Of a stretch of DNA of 64,000 bases, positions 28,658-39,323 are shown piece by piece. Both the position numbers and the translations under genes were made by a program. Where the stretch lies: positions 67,551 through 131,550 of the forward strand of contig DASUNP010000067.1 of assembly GCA_036277095.1 (NCBI GenBank), given 5' to 3'. The notes beneath the pieces were generated by a model. It saw only the letters and a list, made by a program, of their open reading frames with translations, was not told the origin of the DNA and ran no database searches. The DNA comes from Blastocatellia bacterium (lineage in GTDB: Bacteria; Acidobacteriota; Blastocatellia; UBA7656). Numbering within the stretch: position 1 is the stretch's first letter; every line of letters starts with the position of its first letter.

Positions 28658-28990
28658 GTGGTTTCGCGCATCTACGCAATCCGGGAGGGCATTAAGCAAA
28701 ACGAAATGGTCATCCCTTTTTCCACGCGGATATCTATTCCGCCGGACGTGCTTGTGTCCGCGTTAGCAGGCGAGTCTGTCTTACTGAACCTGAAGAGTGA
28801 GAAGTACTTTGGCCTGGACGAAATGGGGACGCGCATGTGGGGCGCGCTTACTTCGTCCAGATCGATTCAAGAGGCGTATGAGATTCTGCTGGCGGAATAC
28901 GATGTAGAGGCCGAGCGATTGCGCCGCGACCTGAGCGATTTAATAGAGAAGCTCGCCGAGCAGGGACTAATAGATGTTCACCATGAATAA
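28658..28990 (+). CDS. lasso peptide biosynthesis B1 protein (PqqD-family RRE)
   Basis: 110 aa; PqqD-like SVLLNLKSEKYFGLDEMGTRMWGAL ... ; first gene of a B1-B2-C series. GTG start in the track; the ATG at MVIPFST is an alternative. Confidence 0.8.
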   Translation: MVSRIYAIREGIKQNEMVIPFSTRISIPPDVLVSALAGESVLLNLKSEKYFGLDEMGTRMWGALTSSRSIQEAYEILLAEYDVEAERLRRDLSDLIEKLAEQGLIDVHHE

Positions 28991-29447
28991 ATGGCGCAAA
29001 TTCATCGGACTGTCGGCACGAGAGCGATGGCTGTTGTCGCAATCGCTCGTGCTGTTGCCGTTTGCTGCGGCGGCCTTGTCTGTGATGGGGCTCAGGAGAT
29101 ATCAGAGACTGATGGATAGATTCTCGCGCGCCATTAAGCCGGATGTCGCCGGGGACGAGCGAGAGCTTCGCGACCGAGTTCGTAAGACGGCCCGCCTGGT
29201 AGAGGCGGCGAGAAGGTACGGGCCTTACCGTGCGAAGTGCTTGCCCGAATCGCTAACCCTGTGGTGGCTTTTGCGCCGGCAAGGGATCGAAAGCCAGGTC
29301 AAATTCGGCGCGCGCAAAAATGATCGCCGGATGGAAGCACATGCCTGGGTGGAGTTCGAAGGAGTTCCGCTCAACGACACCACAGATGTCATGGAGCGTT
29401 TCAAGCCTTTCGAGCCCGCCGTCCTGCCCGAGGAGTTGAAGACATAA
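28974..29447 (+). CDS. lasso peptide biosynthesis B2 protein (transglutaminase-like leader peptidase)
   Basis: 157 aa; Cys (AKCLPESLTLWWLL), His (EAHAWVEF) and Asp (LND) of the catalytic triad; 17-bp overlap with B1. Confidence 0.85.
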   Translation: MFTMNKWRKFIGLSARERWLLSQSLVLLPFAAAALSVMGLRRYQRLMDRFSRAIKPDVAGDERELRDRVRKTARLVEAARRYGPYRAKCLPESLTLWWLLRRQGIESQVKFGARKNDRRMEAHAWVEFEGVPLNDTTDVMERFKPFEPAVLPEELKT

Positions 29448-31306
29448 TGAGCGGCATTATCGGCATCGTCAATCTGGATGGCAGACCGGTCAGCCGGGAA
29501 TTGTTACGCCGGATGACAGACTTCATGGCCTATCGCGGCCCGGACGCGCAACAGATTTGGAGCGCGGGGCACATCGGATTCGGCCACGCGATGCTGCGCA
29601 CGACCAGAGAGTCAATCAATGAGCGCCAGCCTCTGAGCCTGGATAGAGAAGTTTGGATTACTGCGGACGCGCGAATCGATGGCCGGAACGAGCTGATCGG
29701 CAAATTAGAGTCTAAAGTCGCAGCCGACCTCGCAGGTGTTACGGATGTCGAGCTAATTCTTCACGCCTACAACGCCTGGGGCGAAGGATGTCTGGAACAT
29801 CTGATAGGCGATTTCGCCTTTGCGATATGGGATGGGCGGAAGCGGCGATTGTTTTGCGCTCGCGACCATTTCGGGGTGAAGCCTTTTTACTATGCGCACG
29901 TAGATAATAGTTTGATATTCAGCAACACGCTCAATTGCGTGCGATTGCACCCTGCGGTTTCGGATGAATTAAACGAGCGAGCCATCGGCGATTTCCTGCT
30001 CTTTGGTCTTAATCAAGAATTCAATACAACGACATTTGCTGACATCAAGCGTCTGCCCCCTGCCCACTACTTGCTATTGTTGGCTGGACGAAAGCAGGCA
30101 CGTCGTTACTGGACCTTACCTACGGAGGAACAAATCCGGTACAGGCGCGATGACGAATATGTTGAGCATTTCAAATATCTATTGCGAGAAGCGGTTGGTG
30201 ATAGGCTTCGCGCTAAGAAGATCGCCGTTAGTATGAGCGGTGGGCTCGATTCCACATCAGTGGCGGCAATTGCTAAAGAAGTATCATCTGAGAAACTCGA
30301 TCTGCAAGCCTTCACTATGATTTATGACAGGTTGATACCTGATCAAGAGCGGTACTATTCAGGATTAGCAGCGGAAGGGCTTGGCATCCCGATTCACTAC
30401 CTTGTATTGGACGACTATAAGTTGTATGAGCGATGGGGTTGTCCAGAACATCGTTTTCCTGAGCCGATGCATTTCCCACTGTCAGCATTCGTTTCAGATC
30501 ATCTAATGCGAATCTCATCGCACAGCCGAATAGTTCTGAGTGGCGATGGCGGTGACCCGGCACTATATTTTTCGCAGGCGTATTTTGCTCAACAGCTAAA
30601 GAGGTTTCGATTTTGGCCTGTAGCTTCGTTTATAGCGCGATACGTGCGAACCTATCGGCGGTTTCCAAAACTCGGTTTCCGCACAACGCTGAAGCGCTGG
30701 GCAGGGACTTACTTGGAGTGGAAACATCCTTATCCAATTTGGGTCGAACAGGTTTTTGCGGACCGCTACAACCTGCAAGCGAGGCTGGAATGGGTGAGCA
30801 AAGTATCAGGACCGATTCATCCGACTCGCCCGGAAGCCTATAATTTCCTCACTATGATTGATTGGCCGAACACTTTTGAGTGCGCAGACCCGGGGGCGAC
30901 ATCTATTCCGGTCGAATATCGTTATCCATTTTTTGATCTCCGTTTAGTAAGCTACTTATTGGCAATCCCTCCCTTACCCTGGTGTGCGCACAAGGAAATA
31001 GTTCGCAGGGCGATAAAAGGGTGGTTGCCGGACCCGGTGCGGCTCCGGGCAAAAACGGCCCTGGCCGGAGATCCTTACACTGAACTTATAAAGCAACCCG
31101 ATTCAGACTGTATAGATCGGTTCTCTCCGATGGCCGAATTAACCAGATATATCGATGTAAATGCCATCCCACAGATTGCTCAAGAAAAGGATCCATATAA
31201 GTTATGGTTGAATACTCGTCCAGTTAGTTTAAACTACTGGCTTCGGGATTATAGATCAGTGGGAATTGCCGCAAACAAGGAGAGTTGCTATGAAATCGCA
31301 AGATAA
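29447..31306 (+). CDS. lasso peptide isopeptide-bond-forming cyclase (asparagine-synthetase-like, C protein)
   Basis: 619 aa; AsnB-like N-domain (MSGIIGIV...) and PP-loop SMSGGLDSTSVAAIA; TAATG overlap with B2. Confidence 0.85.
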   Translation: MSGIIGIVNLDGRPVSRELLRRMTDFMAYRGPDAQQIWSAGHIGFGHAMLRTTRESINERQPLSLDREVWITADARIDGRNELIGKLESKVAADLAGVTDVELILHAYNAWGEGCLEHLIGDFAFAIWDGRKRRLFCARDHFGVKPFYYAHVDNSLIFSNTLNCVRLHPAVSDELNERAIGDFLLFGLNQEFNTTTFADIKRLPPAHYLLLLAGRKQARRYWTLPTEEQIRYRRDDEYVEHFKYLLREAVGDRLRAKKIAVSMSGGLDSTSVAAIAKEVSSEKLDLQAFTMIYDRLIPDQERYYSGLAAEGLGIPIHYLVLDDYKLYERWGCPEHRFPEPMHFPLSAFVSDHLMRISSHSRIVLSGDGGDPALYFSQAYFAQQLKRFRFWPVASFIARYVRTYRRFPKLGFRTTLKRWAGTYLEWKHPYPIWVEQVFADRYNLQARLEWVSKVSGPIHPTRPEAYNFLTMIDWPNTFECADPGATSIPVEYRYPFFDLRLVSYLLAIPPLPWCAHKEIVRRAIKGWLPDPVRLRAKTALAGDPYTELIKQPDSDCIDRFSPMAELTRYIDVNAIPQIAQEKDPYKLWLNTRPVSLNYWLRDYRSVGIAANKESCYEIAR

Positions 31307-31421
31307 AACAACTGCGAAGAAAGATTATAATACCCCCAAGCTGTTCATCTATGGAAATATTTCTCAGCTCACACAGAATATAACCGACATGGGGATGAAT
31401 GATAACCCGACTATGAAGACT
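31290..31421 (+). CDS. lasso peptide precursor (A peptide), 43 aa. It is absent from the ORF track (under 60 aa).
   Basis: MKSQDKTTAKKDYNTPKLFIYGNISQLTQNITDMGMNDNPTMKT. The leader fits the lasso consensus Y-x2-P-x-L-x3-G-x5-T-x exactly (Y13..T28-Q29). An AAGGAG RBS lies 8 nt upstream. The gene overlaps the C gene's 3' end by 17 bp. Predicted core NITDMGMNDNPTMKT, with Asp9 as ring acceptor. Confidence 0.7.
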
Positions 31422-31483
31422 TAGCAGTTCGTTGCTCATCACAGATAGCATCTGAAGCTGCTCAATGTCTATTCGTTAAGATC

Positions 31484-32509
31484 ATGTATTTGGCCTATTC
31501 CCTTTACGGCTTGTGCCTGCAAACTAATCTACCTCTTCCTGGCTTAATTCCCCGACCCTCTGCCTCGAAAATAGATGCTCATGTGTGGCTACAATTTATA
31601 CCAGATGCTTTGCTTGGTAAGAGTGAGACACAGGCAAAGCTTGTGTATGCCAGCCAAAATCAGGATGAACTTGGAGAGCCTGTGCTGAAAGCCTGGGAGC
31701 TAATGGACGGGAGCTTTTTCCGGCTGCGTTACAGCGATGGGACGGAGTTCGTTATCGACCGCGAAGGTGCTCAGATATGGTGCACTTGGCCGGATAATTT
31801 AACGATTGAGGACACAACCGTTTATCTTCTTGGTCCAATATTCGGATTTGTACTACGTCTTCGCGGAACGCTCTGCTTGCATGCAAGCGCTATCGCCGTA
31901 GGAGAATATGCAATCGCAATTGTAGGTCCCGCCGGGACTGGAAAATCTACAACCGCCGCAGCGCTTGCGAAGTCAGGATTTCCAGTATTGACAGATGATG
32001 TATTAGCGCTTACCGATATGGATGGCATATTTATGGCTCAACCCGCCTATCCGCACCTGCGCTTATGGCCGGCATCAGTGAATATCTTATATGGTAAACC
32101 GGACGCCCTGCCGAGATTGGTGCCGGGGGATTCATTATGGGATAAACGCTACCTGAATCTCACCGAGAATGATTATATGTTTCAACGCCATCCGCTCCCT
32201 CTCGCGTCAATATACCTGTTAAGCGAACGCACTGAAGATTCAGCAGCTCCATTTATCGAATCAATGTCTGCAAGCGCCGGCTTGATGACTCTTGTTACGA
32301 ATACTTACGCGAACCATCTTCTGAATACTTCGAGGCGCGCCCAAGAATTTGGCTTACTGAGCCGCATCGCATCCAGCCTGCCGGTGCGACGAGTAATACC
32401 TCATGCCAGCCCGTTCTTTCTGTCAAAACTCTGTGAAGTGATCATCAATGATTTTCATCAACAGGTTGAATCGAATAGAATGAGCACGGCGGAAGAAGCG
32501 CAACTCTGA
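31484..32509 (+). CDS. HPr-kinase/phosphorylase-like kinase (lasso precursor kinase homologue)
   Basis: 341 aa; P-loop GPAGTGKSTTAAALA followed by the LTDD motif typical of the HprK C-domain; this family is known in phosphorylated lasso clusters (paeninodin type). Confidence 0.7.
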   Translation: MYLAYSLYGLCLQTNLPLPGLIPRPSASKIDAHVWLQFIPDALLGKSETQAKLVYASQNQDELGEPVLKAWELMDGSFFRLRYSDGTEFVIDREGAQIWCTWPDNLTIEDTTVYLLGPIFGFVLRLRGTLCLHASAIAVGEYAIAIVGPAGTGKSTTAAALAKSGFPVLTDDVLALTDMDGIFMAQPAYPHLRLWPASVNILYGKPDALPRLVPGDSLWDKRYLNLTENDYMFQRHPLPLASIYLLSERTEDSAAPFIESMSASAGLMTLVTNTYANHLLNTSRRAQEFGLLSRIASSLPVRRVIPHASPFFLSKLCEVIINDFHQQVESNRMSTAEEAQL

Positions 32510-33223: not shown

Positions 33224-34393
33224 ATGTATAGCATCACCAGCTATGGCAAGATGATTGCCGACCATGTACGCACAGAGGCTTATGCGCATGCTTTGCGTCG
33301 GGCGATAAAGCCCGACTCGGTCGTCCTCGATATCGGAACGGGGATAGGCATCTTTGCGATGCTGGCCTGTCAATTCGGCGCGCGACGAGTCTATGCCATT
33401 GAGCCGGATGATGCCGTCCAGGTTGCGCGAACGATCGCCGCAGATAACGGCTTTGCCAACCGCATTGAGTTTATTCAAGAACTCTCTTCTCGTATCACAT
33501 TATCTGAGCGAGTCGATCTGATCGTCTCTGACTTGCGGGGCGTGCTGCCTTTGTTTCGTCATCACATTCCGTCAATCATCGATGCTCGAAAGCGCTTCCT
33601 TGCTCCAGACGGCATACTGATACCACAGCAAGACACTTTATGGGCGGCAGTGTCGGAAGCCCCGGATCTGTATGAACGCTATTCGACGCTCTGGAGCGAT
33701 AATGCTTATGGGCTTGACCTCGGCGCAGCCCGGCGATTAGCGGTTAACACCTGGCAGAAAGGCCGAGTCGCCTCCGATCAGCTTTTAACGCCTCCTCAAC
33801 AATGGGCTACGCTCGATTATTATTCTATAGAGAGCGCCAACATCAGCGCTGAAATGATCTTTACCGCGATGCGCGCGGGGACTGCTCACGGCTTGAGCCT
33901 GTGGTTCGACGGCCTGCTCGCTGAAGGAGTGAGTTTTTCGAACGCTCCCGGCCAGCCCGAATTAATCTATGGCAGCGCCTTCTTCCCATTCTCTTCTCCC
34001 GTAACGCTGGCCGTCGGCGATAGAGTCTCCGTTAAGCTTTCGGCAGACCTCGTAGTCGATGATTACGTCTGGCGGTGGAATACTCAGGTGGCGGGTCAGG
34101 GCGATGAGATCAAAGCCGATTTCAAACAGTCTACTTTCTTCGGCGCGCCGCTGTCTCCGAATCAACTGCGCAAACGAGAGAGCAGCTATGTCCCTGCGCT
34201 TGATAAAGAGGGGCAGATCGACCGGCTCATCCTTTCTCTCATGAACGGGCAGAATTCTCTAAGCGATATTGCTCACACAGTTGCAACTGATTTCCCGGAC
34301 CGCTTCAAAAGCTGGCAGGATGCGCTGAACCGCGCAGGCGAGCTCTCTGTTAAATACAGCAACCGGTCCGGCCTCTCTCATGCTTCGCAATGA
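33224..34393 (+). CDS. PRMT-fold (protein arginine N-methyltransferase-like) class I methyltransferase
   Basis: 389 aa. MIADHVRTEAYAHAL and VLDIGTGIGIFAMLACQFGARRVYAIE align with PRMT motif I/post-I. The double-E loop is replaced (SDLRGV instead of SEWMGY). Confidence 0.65.
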   Translation: MYSITSYGKMIADHVRTEAYAHALRRAIKPDSVVLDIGTGIGIFAMLACQFGARRVYAIEPDDAVQVARTIAADNGFANRIEFIQELSSRITLSERVDLIVSDLRGVLPLFRHHIPSIIDARKRFLAPDGILIPQQDTLWAAVSEAPDLYERYSTLWSDNAYGLDLGAARRLAVNTWQKGRVASDQLLTPPQQWATLDYYSIESANISAEMIFTAMRAGTAHGLSLWFDGLLAEGVSFSNAPGQPELIYGSAFFPFSSPVTLAVGDRVSVKLSADLVVDDYVWRWNTQVAGQGDEIKADFKQSTFFGAPLSPNQLRKRESSYVPALDKEGQIDRLILSLMNGQNSLSDIAHTVATDFPDRFKSWQDALNRAGELSVKYSNRSGLSHASQ

Positions 34394-35589
34394 AACCGTC
34401 AAGTCGCGCAGTCTCCGGCATGATCTCTGAACACGAGTTGCTCGTATGCTGCGCCCGGACATATCTGGATTCTAAGAGCGCCGCGCGCGTTGCCGCGCTC
34501 GTTCAACAGCGAATAGACTGGGATTACCTGGTCCGAGCGGCTACACATCACAGCCTGCTTCCGCTCCTGCACTCACATCTGAGCGCAATCTGCCCCGATG
34601 ACATTCCCGGCGCCGCCTCCAACCGGCTCAAAGAGCATTCTCAGAATAACAGCAGAAACAGTCTTCTCCTCACAGGCGAGCTGATTAAGCTTCAACGGCT
34701 TTTTCAGTCTCAAGATATTCCGATGGTCCCGTTTAAGGGGCCGATCCTGGCCGCCTGTTTCTATGGCGATGTAGGGCTCAGGCAGTTTAGCGACCTCGAC
34801 CTGTTGGTCCGCAAACAGGACGTGTTCAAAGCCAGGGATATTCTCATCTCTGCTCAATACCTTCCGCGCTACCGGTTGGGCGCGACGCAACGGGCGGCGA
34901 TGGTCGAGCAAAAGTGCGAGGAGCCCTTTGACCGGGACGATAACGCTGCGACGGTCGATCTACACTGGGCAGTTATACCAACGCGATTCTCTTTCGCGCC
35001 CGATATCGCCTCGATATGGCAGGGGCTTGAGCGAGTCTCGCTCAGCGGCTGCGAGTTTCTGACGGTCGCGCCCGAAGATCTGATTATGCTGATCTGCATA
35101 CATGGCGCAAAGCATGCCTGGGAGCGATTGGGCTGGATATGCGACCTGGCGGAGTTGATTCGCGCCCGCAGAAGTTTGGATTGGAACTCAGTCATCGAGA
35201 CGGGAAGACGAAGCGGCGGCCAAAGAATTCTTTCTCTCGGTCTTTTCCTGGCGAGCGATCTGCTGGATGCGCCGCTCCCGCCGGGAGTTTTCGAAAGCGT
35301 GCAATCTGATAGACAGGTCCGGTCGCTTGCGGCGAAAGTTTATTCGAATCTCTCGCGCAGGATTGATAGACAGATAAGTGTCTTTGAAAGGGACCTGTTT
35401 TACCTCCAATCCATGAATCGCGTAAAGGATCGCGCGCATTTACTGTCGGACCATATAAAGCCGACGCCTCTCGAATGGCAGATGGTGCCGCTGCCCCCGT
35501 ATCTCTCCTTCTTTTATTATCCGCTGCGCCCTATCAGGATAATCGAGAAACACTGGCAGAGTTTAACTAAACGCATGTTATCGAAATGA
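34390..35589 (+). CDS. nucleotidyltransferase-family protein (PF14907-like 'uncharacterised NTP transferase')
   Basis: 399 aa; FSDLDLLV motif; ATGA overlap with the methyltransferase; this family co-occurs with kinases in lasso clusters. Confidence 0.6.
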   Translation: MKPSSRAVSGMISEHELLVCCARTYLDSKSAARVAALVQQRIDWDYLVRAATHHSLLPLLHSHLSAICPDDIPGAASNRLKEHSQNNSRNSLLLTGELIKLQRLFQSQDIPMVPFKGPILAACFYGDVGLRQFSDLDLLVRKQDVFKARDILISAQYLPRYRLGATQRAAMVEQKCEEPFDRDDNAATVDLHWAVIPTRFSFAPDIASIWQGLERVSLSGCEFLTVAPEDLIMLICIHGAKHAWERLGWICDLAELIRARRSLDWNSVIETGRRSGGQRILSLGLFLASDLLDAPLPPGVFESVQSDRQVRSLAAKVYSNLSRRIDRQISVFERDLFYLQSMNRVKDRAHLLSDHIKPTPLEWQMVPLPPYLSFFYYPLRPIRIIEKHWQSLTKRMLSK

Positions 35590-35668: not shown

Positions 35669-37495
35669 ATGACGACTACCACGGCATCAATTAACAGAAT
35701 TTTTATCGCCACTTTGCTCGGCGAAATGTCGTGGAGAGTGGTCCTGGTCCTTACGCTCATGCTCTCGCTCGGCCTTATCGAAGGCATCGGGCTGATACTT
35801 CTAATCCCTCTGCTTGGGCTCACGGGCATAGATGTTCAACAAGGCGCGGTCGGCGCAATCGATAGCTTCGTCGCGTCAGCTTTCAATGTCGCGGGCCTGC
35901 GCCCGACTCTCATGTCTGTGCTGGCCGTTTATGTCGCAATCACAATTGCTCACTCGCTCTTACAACGCTGGCAAACGGTGAGCAGCGCTTCGCTTGAAAA
36001 CGAATTTGTAGATCGTCTCAGGCAGCGGCTCTATAAATCGATCACGAATGCGAACTGGCTATTTTTCTCCAGGTCGAAAGCTTCCCATTTCACTCACGCG
36101 CTCACTTCGGAGCTTGACCGTGTAGATATCGCAACCTATAGCCTGCTTGCCATAGTCGTCAACTGCGTCGTCGCCTCAGTCTACATAATCCTGGCTTTGC
36201 GTTTGTCCGTGCCGATGACGGTGCTGGTCTTCGCTTGCGGAGCGGCGCTCCTGCTCCTGCTTAAAGGCAAGATGCGAAAGGCGCGTTTGAGCGGGGAAGC
36301 TCTCTCTGATGCGACAGGGGAGATGCACTCTTCTTCGCTGGAGCACTTCGGCGGCATAAAAGTGGTGAAAGCCTATAACGCCGAACGGCGCAATATAAAG
36401 ATCTTTTCGGAGTTGACCCGTCGCGTCACGCGCATCTACGACGCCTACACGCGCGACCATGCGAATATGAAACTCTGGTTCGACGTGGGCGCTGTGCTTG
36501 TCCTGGCGGTGATTCTTTACGTCTCCATAGGGGTGGCTTCTATGCCCGCGGCGGGCGTGCTCGTCTTGATATTCCTGTTCGCGCGCATCATGCCAAAGCT
36601 CTCAACCATACAGCAGAACTATCAGCGTTACGTTCACGCGCTGCCTGCGTTCGCTGCCGTGATGGATGTAGAATCGCGCTGCCTGGCGGCATCCGACCCG
36701 GCGCCTACAGATACAGAGCCTGTGCAGTTCCGGCAGTCCGTGAGGCTCGACCGCGTAGATTTCGAATATGAGCCTGGCGGGTTTCGATTACAGGCGCTTG
36801 ACCTGACAATCGCATTCGGCGATATGACGGCTATAGTCGGCCAATCGGGCGCGGGCAAAAGCACTATAGCAGACCTTCTCCTGGGCCTGGTCGCACCCGG
36901 GCGAGGCCGTGTCTTGATCGATGACGCCGTTTTAGAAGCAAAGCTCATTAAAGGCTGGCGCGACCAGATCGGCTACGTTGCGCAGGACACTTTCTTATTT
37001 CACGACACGGTCAGGGCCAACCTGCTATGGGCGCGGCCCGAGGCAACCGAGCAAGAGTTGTGGGATGCGTTGAGGCTCGCGGCGGCAGATGAGTTCGTTA
37101 AGGATTTGCCTCAAAGACTTGAAACAGTCCTGGGCGATCGCGGCGTGAGGCTTTCGGGCGGCGAGAGACAACGAATAGCATTGGCGCGCGCGCTGCTGCG
37201 CAAGCCGCAGCTCTTGATACTTGACGAGGCCACGAGCGCGCTCGATTCAGAAAATGAAAAGCGCATACTCTCTGCCATAGAAGAGTTGCACGGCCGTCTC
37301 ACTATACTCGTCATTGCCCACAGGCTCTCTACAATCAGAACAGCGGATCACATTTATCTTATCGAACGGGGCAGATTGATCGAACACGGAGATTGGTCTT
37401 CGCTCATCACCAGGGAAGGCGGCAGGTTTCAAGCCTTCTTTAAGGCGCAGAACCTTGAAGTTGTCCCTGACACACAGAAGGTTTCTTATGATTGA
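35669..37495 (+). CDS. ABC transporter, fused permease/ATPase (lasso exporter D)
   Basis: 608 aa; 6 TM N-domain; Walker A GQSGAGKST; signature LSGGERQRIALARALL; Walker B LILDEATSALD. Confidence 0.85.
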   Translation: MTTTTASINRIFIATLLGEMSWRVVLVLTLMLSLGLIEGIGLILLIPLLGLTGIDVQQGAVGAIDSFVASAFNVAGLRPTLMSVLAVYVAITIAHSLLQRWQTVSSASLENEFVDRLRQRLYKSITNANWLFFSRSKASHFTHALTSELDRVDIATYSLLAIVVNCVVASVYIILALRLSVPMTVLVFACGAALLLLLKGKMRKARLSGEALSDATGEMHSSSLEHFGGIKVVKAYNAERRNIKIFSELTRRVTRIYDAYTRDHANMKLWFDVGAVLVLAVILYVSIGVASMPAAGVLVLIFLFARIMPKLSTIQQNYQRYVHALPAFAAVMDVESRCLAASDPAPTDTEPVQFRQSVRLDRVDFEYEPGGFRLQALDLTIAFGDMTAIVGQSGAGKSTIADLLLGLVAPGRGRVLIDDAVLEAKLIKGWRDQIGYVAQDTFLFHDTVRANLLWARPEATEQELWDALRLAAADEFVKDLPQRLETVLGDRGVRLSGGERQRIALARALLRKPQLLILDEATSALDSENEKRILSAIEELHGRLTILVIAHRLSTIRTADHIYLIERGRLIEHGDWSSLITREGGRFQAFFKAQNLEVVPDTQKVSYD

Positions 37496-37742: not shown

Positions 37743-38225
37743 ATGAGAAGAGAACCGTTCATGACGTTACCCCTGGCGAGAAGAGACGGGTTGTTAGTTC
37801 GGGAGATGAATGAAGAGATGCTGGTCTATGACCTGCAACGACATAAAGCGCACTGCTTGAACCGCCCCGCCGCTCTGGTATGGGGCCACTGCGACGGAAA
37901 GGCTAGCGTGGCTGAAGTGGCGCGGCTCGTCGGAGAGAAGATAGGAACACCGCTTGACGAAGAGACGATCCGCCATGCCTTAACTCAACTCGATCGGGCG
38001 GCGCTGTTAGAGAGGCGGATAACGCAAGCCGGTAACACTAGAAGATTATCCCGCAGACAGGCAGTGCGCAGATTGAGTGCGGCTGCGGTGGCCGCCGTGC
38101 CGATTGTGACAACCATCGTTGCGCCGCAGGCGGCAGAAGCCGCGACCTGTACACGCGCCGGGGAGACGTGCACAGGGCTGCCCTGCTGCGGCAGCGCTAC
38201 GAGGTGCTTTGTCGGCAGGTGCTAA
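37743..38225 (+). CDS. PqqD-like (RRE) domain protein with a hydrophobic/Tat-like segment and a C-terminal 6-Cys tail
   Basis: 160 aa. LVYDLQRHKAHCLNRPAALVWGHCDGKASVAEVARLV matches the PqqD fold. Then SRRQAVRRLSAAAVAAVPIVTTIVAPQAAEAA, followed by TCTRAGETCTGLPCCGSATRCFVGRC (C-x6-C-x4-CC-x5-C-x4-C). Confidence 0.5.
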   Translation: MRREPFMTLPLARRDGLLVREMNEEMLVYDLQRHKAHCLNRPAALVWGHCDGKASVAEVARLVGEKIGTPLDEETIRHALTQLDRAALLERRITQAGNTRRLSRRQAVRRLSAAAVAAVPIVTTIVAPQAAEAATCTRAGETCTGLPCCGSATRCFVGRC

Positions 38226-38234
38226 CTCTATTCA

Positions 38235-39323
38235 ATGAATAACAGCCTTGCACAGTCTCGGGGAAGTCAGATCGCCGCCGTGCTCGCAGGCTCATGGCGC
38301 GACCATCCCCCGCCCTTGAAAATATCGGGCGGCCAATTGGCCGAGATAACTTCGGCATTGCTCGCGACGGGGACCGCGCCCCTTTGTTGGAGGCGTCTTC
38401 TTCATTCTAAAACGGAAGCGCGCGCAGCCTTAGAGTTAAAAGCGGCTTACTACTTTCACACGATTCGGGCCGCCTACCACGAATATGAGGTCGAGCAGGT
38501 CTTCCGGCTGCTGCGTGCAGCGGGCTTAGAGCCCGTGCTGATGAAAGGGTGGGCCGTCGCACGACTTTATCCCGAATCGGGGCTCAGGCCATACGGAGAT
38601 GTAGACCTTTTCATCAGGCCCCGCGAGCGCCGCAAGGCTGCGGCTGTTTTAGCGAGCAATGAAGGCGTGAAACTTAACGTAGACATCGAGCATGAAGAGT
38701 TTGCCTGTGTGAGCGACCGGGCGGCGGATGATTTATGCGCTCGCTCAAAGCTTGTGACGCTGGGCGAAACGCATGTTCGCATTCTCGGCGACGAAGACCA
38801 CCTGCGTATGCTCTGTCTGCACACGCTCAGACATCACGCATGGCGACCGCTGTGGCTCTGCGACATAGGCGTTGTGGTCGAATCTTTGCCGGAAGGTTTC
38901 GATTGGGAGATCTGTCTTGGCGCAAACAAGAGGGAAGCCAACTGGGTCGCCTGCCTGGTCGAGCTGGCGAGCCAGGTTCTCGGCGTCCAACCGCGCGGTG
39001 ATTTTGTGTCGCGCGCCTCGTCGAAGCTGCCGCGCTGGGTCGGGCCCGCGCTTCTAAGAGACTGGGGCAGGTGGCACGGCCCGGGACCTGCGGAGTTGGC
39101 AGCCACGGCGTTCGTGAAGAATGTCAAAAGCCCCTCTCGAATGATTGGCGAGATCATCTCCAGGTGGGATCGCCCGATCAAGGCTACGGTCGAGATGCGA
39201 GGTCCGTTCAATCAATTTCTAAGACTTCCCTTTCAGATCTCTTACGCTCTTTCGCAGACTCCGAGGATCGCCCGACAGGTCGCGCGCGGTTTCTGCAAAG
39301 GGCGAACAGCGGAGGAGCAATGA
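38235..39323 (+). CDS. nucleotidyltransferase-family protein (second PF14907-like paralogue)
   Basis: 362 aa; YGDVDLFIRP motif; 9 bp after the RRE-Cys ORF; its stop overlaps the next gene as ATGA. Confidence 0.55.
   Translation: MNNSLAQSRGSQIAAVLAGSWRDHPPPLKISGGQLAEITSALLATGTAPLCWRRLLHSKTEARAALELKAAYYFHTIRAAYHEYEVEQVFRLLRAAGLEPVLMKGWAVARLYPESGLRPYGDVDLFIRPRERRKAAAVLASNEGVKLNVDIEHEEFACVSDRAADDLCARSKLVTLGETHVRILGDEDHLRMLCLHTLRHHAWRPLWLCDIGVVVESLPEGFDWEICLGANKREANWVACLVELASQVLGVQPRGDFVSRASSKLPRWVGPALLRDWGRWHGPGPAELAATAFVKNVKSPSRMIGEIISRWDRPIKATVEMRGPFNQFLRLPFQISYALSQTPRIARQVARGFCKGRTAEEQ

What the first reader, a model, noticed from the sequence alone, without database searches (positions are those of the whole stretch)
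33224..34393. PRMT-fold methyltransferase in a RiPP cluster whose precursor contains no arginine
The enzyme carries PRMT motif I/post-I (VLDIGTGIG ... VYAIE) and the upstream THW-less helix (MIADHVRTEAY) but lacks the double-E loop (SDLRGV in place of SEWMGY). The precursor (leader and core) has no Arg at all. The substrate is therefore probably something else: a Lys, a carboxylate, a phosphate (methyl-phosphoester) or a nucleotide/sugar added by the NTases. Tailoring of this kind would be unprecedented for lasso peptides.
Basis: inference. Interest (0 to 1): 0.7.

Follow-up and report, generated by a model that had tools for sequence, protein, structure and literature searches.

The report
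Lasso-peptide methyltransferase with repurposed PRMT fold
A gene inside a lasso-peptide antibiotic-type gene cluster encodes an enzyme with the full shape of a protein-arginine methyltransferase but without the residues that hold arginine; it belongs to a large uncharacterised family that always travels with a peptide kinase, so it probably puts a methyl group on something other than arginine in the peptide's tail.

Summary
Window 33224-34393 (+) encodes a 389-aa protein with a type I PRMT fold (Pfam PrmA and PRMT_C; PDB sequence hits E~1e-28; AF2 model against PRMT1/8 TM 0.84-0.85). The double-E loop is replaced by a family-invariant S-D-x-(R/H)-G, and the THW loop by E-L-I-Y-G. A C-terminal three-helix domain resembles the helical half of PqqD/lasso B1. 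The gene lies in one operon with lasso B1-B2-C, the precursor, an HPr-kinase homologue, a 2OG oxygenase, a PF14907 nucleotidyltransferase and an ABC exporter. The precursor, read from its RBS-preceded ATG, has no Arg.

The family is large and spans many phyla. In 50 of 55 kinase-anchored metagenome loci it lies just downstream of the kinase. Across 89 distinct cores, Arg is 1.2% and Lys 9.5%. 84 of 89 end in (K>>R,M)-(T/S)-x0-4.

A second PRMT-like type in other lasso clusters keeps the double-E loop and sits with Arg-containing cores.

So this is a PRMT-derived, non-arginine tailoring methyltransferase acting with the kinase on the peptide's C-terminal tail. The acceptor atom is unresolved. 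I rank Lys N-epsilon (about 0.4) above phosphate or phospho-sugar O (0.25) and the C-terminal carboxylate (0.12). I found no report of this family in the searchable literature.

The parts
33224..34393 (+). Methyltransferase gene, 389 aa. Type I PRMT fold (Rossmann domain, dimerisation arm, beta-barrel) followed by a C-terminal three-helix domain.
33251..33283 (+). Helix alpha-Y equivalent, MIADHVRTEAY (residues 10-20). M10, D13 and R16 align with PRMT1 M48, D51 and R54; R54 is the SAM-carboxylate ligand. There is no alpha-X (YFxxY) helix upstream.
   Evidence: alignments; conservation. PRMT1 residue numbers are from memory.
33323..33349 (+). Motif I, VLDIGTGIG (residues 34-42). G38, G40 and G42 are invariant.
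33389..33403 (+). Post-I, VYAIE (residues 56-60). E60 is invariant and corresponds to the ribose-binding acid.
33527..33562 (+). Former double-E loop, SDLRGVLPLFRH (residues 102-113). The first Glu is replaced by invariant Asp103, and Arg/His105 is introduced. The position of the second Glu is variable in the family (Arg112 here).
   Evidence: The model has pLDDT below 50 at residues 106-111.
33959..33973 (+). Former THW loop, ELIYG (residues 246-250), nearly invariant in the family.
34157..34360 (+). C-terminal helical domain (about residues 312-379). It has three or four helices and resembles the helical half of PqqD and of lasso B1 recognition elements.
31290..31424 (+). Lasso precursor. 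Leader: MKSQDKTTAKKDYNTPKLFIYGNISQLTQ. Predicted core: NITDMGMNDNPTMKT. It has the YxxPxL...T(-2) leader motif and no Arg. Asp9 is the likely ring acceptor. The core ends in M-K-T.
31484..32509 (+). HPr-kinase-like lasso peptide kinase with a P-loop (GPAGTGKST).
   Evidence: Hpr_kinase_C, E 1.8e-4; HprK_rel_A, E 1e-8. Function of homologues from PMC8498205.
32570..33193 (+). 2OG-Fe(II) oxygenase of the prolyl-hydroxylase type. It is present in only a subset of the related clusters.
34390..35589 (+). PF14907 nucleotidyltransferase. Its start overlaps the methyltransferase stop codon.
28658..31306 (+). Core lasso machinery: B1 (PqqD/RRE, 28658-28990), B2 (transglutaminase-like protease, 28974-29447) and C (Asn-synthetase-like cyclase, 29447-31306).
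35669..37495 (+). ABC exporter (lasso D).
37743..39323 (+). Possibly associated genes: a 160-aa protein (PqqD-like domain, Tat-like signal, Cys-rich tail; 37743-38225) and a second PF14907 nucleotidyltransferase (38235-39323).
   Evidence: The same pair is found in L082.

Best explanation
The protein is a SAM-dependent tailoring methyltransferase of a kinase-type lasso-peptide pathway. It descends from type I protein arginine methyltransferases and keeps their SAM site, dimerisation arm and beta-barrel. It has replaced the three elements that hold a guanidinium group. The first Glu of the double-E loop became Asp103, the second Glu was lost, and THW became ELIY.

Proposed mechanism (inferred):
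1. The C-terminal three-helix, RRE-like domain, alone or together with B1, docks the leader-bearing linear precursor.
2. The HPr-kinase homologue phosphorylates the conserved Thr/Ser in the C-terminal (K/R/M)-(T/S)-x0-4 tail.
3. The methyltransferase then reads this tail and methylates it.

The most likely acceptor is the epsilon-amine of the conserved Lys next to the phospho-Thr/Ser. In this model Asp103 takes the role of the PRMT Glu towards the cationic nitrogen, and Arg/His105 contacts the neighbouring phosphate.

What is shown: the fold, the motif losses, membership of the operon, the obligate pairing with the kinase, and the Lys-rich, Arg-poor cores with a conserved K-T/S tail. What is inferred: that the enzyme acts on the precursor, the order of the steps, the acceptor atom, and the roles of Asp103 and Arg105.
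For: Fold.

Active-site changes across the family:
- S102, D103 and G106 are invariant, residue 105 is R or H, and E246-L-I-Y-G is at least 90% conserved.
- The SAM ligands are kept (R16, G38/G40/G42, E60), so the enzyme is likely active.

Operon: the methyltransferase stop overlaps the NTase start.

Synteny:
- About 20 of 25 full-length homologues in reference genomes lie with lasso B1/B2/C and the kinase. These come from Acidobacteriota, Cyanobacteriota, Desulfobacterales, Chloroflexia, Longimicrobiales, Binatia, Chromatiaceae and Heliobacteriaceae.
- Of 55 kinase-anchored metagenome loci with at least 700 nt of sequence after the kinase, 50 carry the methyltransferase: 43 directly adjacent, 6 after the oxygenase, and 1 after a 493-nt gap.

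The substrate is not Arg: 75 of 89 distinct cores have no Arg.

Pointers to Lys:
- Cores are 9.5% Lys and 1.2% Arg. Their own leaders are 10.9% and 7.7%, and the methyltransferases from the same organisms are 2.6% and 7.8%.
- 87 of 89 cores contain Lys, and K-(T/S) lies in the last six residues in 77 of 89.
- An acidic residue is retained at the PRMT Glu position, as expected for a cationic nitrogen nucleophile.

Contrast class: a second PRMT-like type in lasso clusters keeps the double-E loop and the Trp of THW. Their cores contain Arg, some in G-R contexts, and those from L033, L038 and L061 have no Lys. L003 has both enzyme types, and its core carries both GGRG and DKTS.

Leader dependence: the C-terminal domain's best low-rmsd structural matches are PqqD and lasso B1. 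Published kinases of this type act on the linear precursor (PMC8498205).
Against: - No experiment, and no model of an enzyme-peptide complex, identifies the acceptor.
- Several clusters that keep an intact methyltransferase lack Lys at position -1: L014 (ARTSF), L098 (NNMTG) and L096 (DHRT). They do have Lys elsewhere in the core.
- One distant cluster has no Lys or Arg in the core at all: L024 (core SGTASLGDGGPMMMACL; enzyme 33% identical).
- The K-(T/S) dyad may instead be a kinase determinant. The natural HPr phosphorylation site is K45-S46 (from memory).
- An introduced Arg/His105 fits an anionic acceptor at least as well as it fits Lys.
- The loop 106-111 is modelled with pLDDT below 50, so the pocket cannot be read from the model.
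- The RRE-like assignment of the C-terminal domain is not statistically secure (hhalign probability 0.3%, Foldseek E 3.2).
- Many of the 89 cores are close variants of one another, so the counts are not independent.
Confidence: 0.4

Rival explanations
1. O-methylation of the phosphate that the kinase puts on the tail Thr/Ser, giving a methyl phosphodiester. A variant is O-methylation of a sugar that the nucleotidyltransferase attaches to that phosphate.
For: - The pairing and adjacency with the kinase are near-obligate.
- Thr/Ser, not Lys, is the truly invariant tail residue: [KRM][TS] occurs in 84 of 89 cores.
- The second Glu is lost and Arg/His105 is gained in the former Arg pocket, which suits an anionic acceptor.
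- Clusters that lost Lys at -1 keep the enzyme (L014, L098).
Against: - I know of no precedent for methyl esters of phospho-Ser/Thr in peptides, and the searchable literature gave none.
- An invariant Asp103 in the pocket is odd for an anionic substrate.
- The published homologue of the nucleotidyltransferase adds hexoses to this same phosphate (PMC8498205). In the many clusters with an NTase, a methyl ester would compete for the site or require a triester.
- The sugar variant fails for clusters with the methyltransferase but no NTase (L018, L023).
Confidence: 0.25
2. Methyl esterification of the C-terminal alpha-carboxylate of the precursor. This is the lassomycin-type modification, carried out here by an unrelated fold.
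For: - A C-terminal methyl ester is a known lasso modification. It is installed on the linear precursor before leader removal (StspM/LasF; PMC9266682).
- The acceptor exists in every cluster, including L024.
- The conserved tail lies within 0-4 residues of the C-terminus.
- Arg/His105 could bind a carboxylate.
Against: - It does not explain the obligate link to the kinase or the Lys enrichment of the cores.
- The C-terminal residue is very variable (T, G, A, V, S, P, F and others).
- The enzyme has no similarity to the known carboxyl methyltransferases. Pfam lists no Methyltransf_2 or PCMT hit.
Confidence: 0.12
3. It is a housekeeping protein methyltransferase after all: ribosomal protein L11 as annotated, or a genuine arginine methyltransferase acting on some cellular protein. 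Its place in the cluster would then be incidental.
For: - NCBI names the identical protein '50S ribosomal protein L11 methyltransferase', and JGI names relatives 'protein arginine N-methyltransferase 1'.
- The Pfam PrmA hit is above its cut-off.
Against: - The PrmA match covers only the Rossmann part (profile positions 145-273 of 296).
- The NCBIfam prmA equivalog scores 32.8 bits against a cut-off of 183.
- The double-E and THW loops are absent.
- Position inside lasso clusters is conserved across many phyla, and the gene is coupled to its neighbours.
Confidence: 0.03
4. The enzyme uses another acceptor or has another role. Options are side-chain N-methylation of Asn (47 of 89 cores start with Asn), methylation of Asp, Ser or Thr oxygen, or a non-catalytic scaffold or chaperone for the kinase.
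For: - Asn1 is common and unusual for lasso cores.
- Asn N-methylation is known in other RiPPs (PMC11285071).
- Some relatives are fused to a PhyH dioxygenase (P0202), which shows that partners vary.
Against: - Asn1 is not conserved; the first residue is also A, S, T, G, L, I or K. It would also become the ring-forming amine.
- Apart from the ring Asp, no other core position is conserved.
- The SAM-binding residues are invariant, which argues against a purely structural role.
Confidence: 0.2

Closest known systems
Type I protein arginine N-methyltransferases (PRMT1, PRMT2, PRMT6, PRMT8, CARM1, yeast Hmt1)
   Same: - Same overall fold: Rossmann SAM domain, helix-turn-helix arm and beta-barrel (TM 0.76-0.85).
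- 22-27% sequence identity.
- Same motif I, post-I acid, alpha-Y helix Met/Asp/Arg and 'DAR' motif.
   Different: - No alpha-X helix.
- The double-E loop SEWMGY...E is replaced by SD(L/M)(R/H)G with no second Glu.
- THW is replaced by ELIYG.
- There is an extra C-terminal three-helix domain.
- The gene is bacterial and encoded in a RiPP cluster, and the co-encoded substrates mostly lack Arg.
Second PRMT-like class in lasso clusters, seen here (L003:4193-5416, L033:148-1392, L038:9680-10882, L060:3167-4378, L044:9674-10879)
   Same: - PRMT fold (PrmA and, in four of the five, PRMT_C Pfam hits).
- Located in lasso clusters, often with the same kind of kinase.
- About 24-29% identical to the window protein.
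   Different: - Keeps the double-E loop (SE..GN.PL.E) and the Trp of THW.
- Its extra domain (about 110 aa; its sequence looked PqqD-like to me, not tested) is N-terminal, not C-terminal.
- Its cores contain Arg, and those from L033 and L038 have no Lys.
- It is probably a true peptide-arginine methyltransferase. It is also uncharacterised as far as I could find.
LasF/StspM C-terminal carboxyl O-methyltransferases of lassomycin-type lasso peptides
   Same: SAM-dependent tailoring of a lasso precursor. The enzyme acts on the linear, leader-bearing peptide near the C-terminus (PMC9266682).
   Different: Unrelated subfamily, modelled on mitomycin 7-O-methyltransferase. It has no PRMT beta-barrel and no link to a kinase.
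PIMT-like lasso methyltransferases TceM/LihM (aspartimide formation)
   Same: SAM-dependent methylation of a lasso peptide, encoded in the cluster.
   Different: PIMT fold. It acts on Asp6 of the already threaded lasso peptide, not on the precursor (PMC9266682, PMC13352647). No PCMT domain is found here.
Paeninodin/pseudomycoidin-type pathways (HPr-kinase homologue PadeK/PsmK plus nucleotidyltransferase PsmN)
   Same: Same cluster logic for the neighbours: B1, B2, C, a kinase that phosphorylates a C-terminal Ser of the precursor, an NTase that adds hexoses to the phosphate, and an ABC exporter (PMC8498205).
   Different: Those clusters are not reported to contain a methyltransferase. Their cores end in Ser without the preceding Lys (from memory). 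Here the Thr/Ser is often followed by 1-4 more residues.
PrmA (ribosomal protein L11 Lys/N-terminal trimethyltransferase)
   Same: Best-scoring Pfam family for the Rossmann part. PrmA is an N-methyltransferase that acts on Lys.
   Different: The window protein has no L11-binding N-terminal domain. The NCBIfam equivalog scores are far below cut-off. It also has a PRMT beta-barrel, which PrmA lacks.

Membership tests
Type I PRMT (protein arginine N-methyltransferase) | Class I Rossmann SAM-binding domain with motif I (VLDVGxGxG), post-I acidic residue and the alpha-Y Arg that binds the SAM carboxylate | tested here: met
   VLDIGTGIG, E60 and R16 align with PRMT1/PRMT2 and are invariant in the family.
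Type I PRMT (protein arginine N-methyltransferase) | C-terminal beta-barrel with inserted dimerisation arm | tested here: met
   Pfam PRMT_C scores 34.4 bits against a cut-off of 27. The AF2 model superposes on PRMT1/PRMT8 over about 315 columns with TM 0.84-0.85.
Type I PRMT (protein arginine N-methyltransferase) | Double-E loop: two Glu residues that clamp the guanidinium | tested here: not met
   The first Glu is replaced by invariant Asp103. The second Glu position is variable in the family (Arg112 here).
Type I PRMT (protein arginine N-methyltransferase) | THW loop | tested here: not met
   E-L-I-Y-G occupies this position and is conserved in the family.
Type I PRMT (protein arginine N-methyltransferase) | Methylates arginine in its substrate | not testable with these tools
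   Indirect evidence only. The window precursor has no Arg, and 75 of 89 cores from homologous clusters have none.
PrmA (L11 methyltransferase) | Full-length match, including the N-terminal L11-binding domain, that reaches the equivalog cut-off | tested here: not met
   Pfam PrmA matches only profile positions 145-273 of 296. NCBIfam TIGR00406 scores 32.8 bits against a cut-off of 183.
Lasso peptide biosynthetic gene cluster (tailoring enzyme of) | Co-directional with, and adjacent to, B1 (RRE), B2 protease, C cyclase and a precursor with the YxxPxL...T(-2) leader | tested here: met
   The same arrangement is found in more than 60 related loci.
Known lasso methyltransferases (StspM/LasF type; PIMT type TceM/LihM) | Homology to Methyltransf_2 / mitomycin-OMT-like enzymes, or to PCMT (PIMT) | tested here: not met
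   Neither family appears among the 11 Pfam hits at E <= 0.01. All PDB sequence hits are PRMTs.
RiPP recognition element (PqqD-like wHTH) for the C-terminal domain | Three beta-strands plus a three-helix bundle that binds the leader peptide | tested here: inconclusive

The most novel reading that the evidence does not exclude
The enzyme is a PRMT-derived O-methyltransferase that caps the kinase-installed phospho-Thr/Ser of a lasso peptide as a methyl phosphodiester. This would be a peptide modification with no known precedent. It would also be the first PRMT-fold enzyme known to use an oxygen nucleophile.
Probability: 0.2. Interest if true: 0.85.

Novelty: new variant of a known kind. Interest (0 to 1): 0.62.

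Why it matters
PRMTs are regarded as dedicated arginine methyltransferases that are essentially eukaryotic. This finding points to a large bacterial family (more than 150 clusters at 50% identity with a full-length match, from at least eight phyla). It keeps the whole PRMT scaffold but has exchanged the arginine-binding residues. It has also been recruited, together with a kinase, to tailor lasso peptides.

Working out its chemistry would have three consequences:
1. It would add a new modification to lasso peptides, whether methyl-lysine next to phospho-threonine, a methyl phosphoester, or a C-terminal ester.
2. It would show how a PRMT active site can be re-tooled for another nucleophile.
3. 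It would give genome miners a marker for an abundant, unexplored clade of soil and cyanobacterial lasso peptides that have Lys-rich, Gly-rich cores and a K-T tail.

The double-E-retaining sister class seen in passing suggests that true arginine methylation of lasso peptides also exists and is undescribed.

Tried and rejected
1. Profile-profile comparison (hhalign) of the C-terminal domain with the B1/PqqD proteins of these clusters gave probability 0.3%, so there is no support from sequence. A profile search of PDB sequences gave only E >= 0.08, with PqqD at 0.41.

2. I looked for covariation between the enzyme's E246 and the substrate's Lys(-1). The subgroup L098/L095/L019 has PAK-VY instead of PEL-IY and M-T cores. 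However, many clusters with K-T cores also lack E246 (L018, L121, L148, L157), so I rejected this.

3. I checked whether clusters with R-T tails (L014) restore Glu at position 103. They do not.

4. I looked for family members outside kinase clusters.
- L006 has the methyltransferase with ABC and NTase genes next to a ThrRS gene and no kinase within 10 kb. This may be a split or decayed cluster.
- L090 has kinase, oxygenase and NTase, with an unknown reverse-strand ORF where the methyltransferase should be.
- Both are single cases and not informative.

It was repeated with 13 sequences.

6. Ten literature searches found no report of a PRMT-like or PrmA-like enzyme in a lasso or other RiPP pathway, and none of methylated phospho-peptides. 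The library lacks most subscription papers, so this is weak negative evidence.

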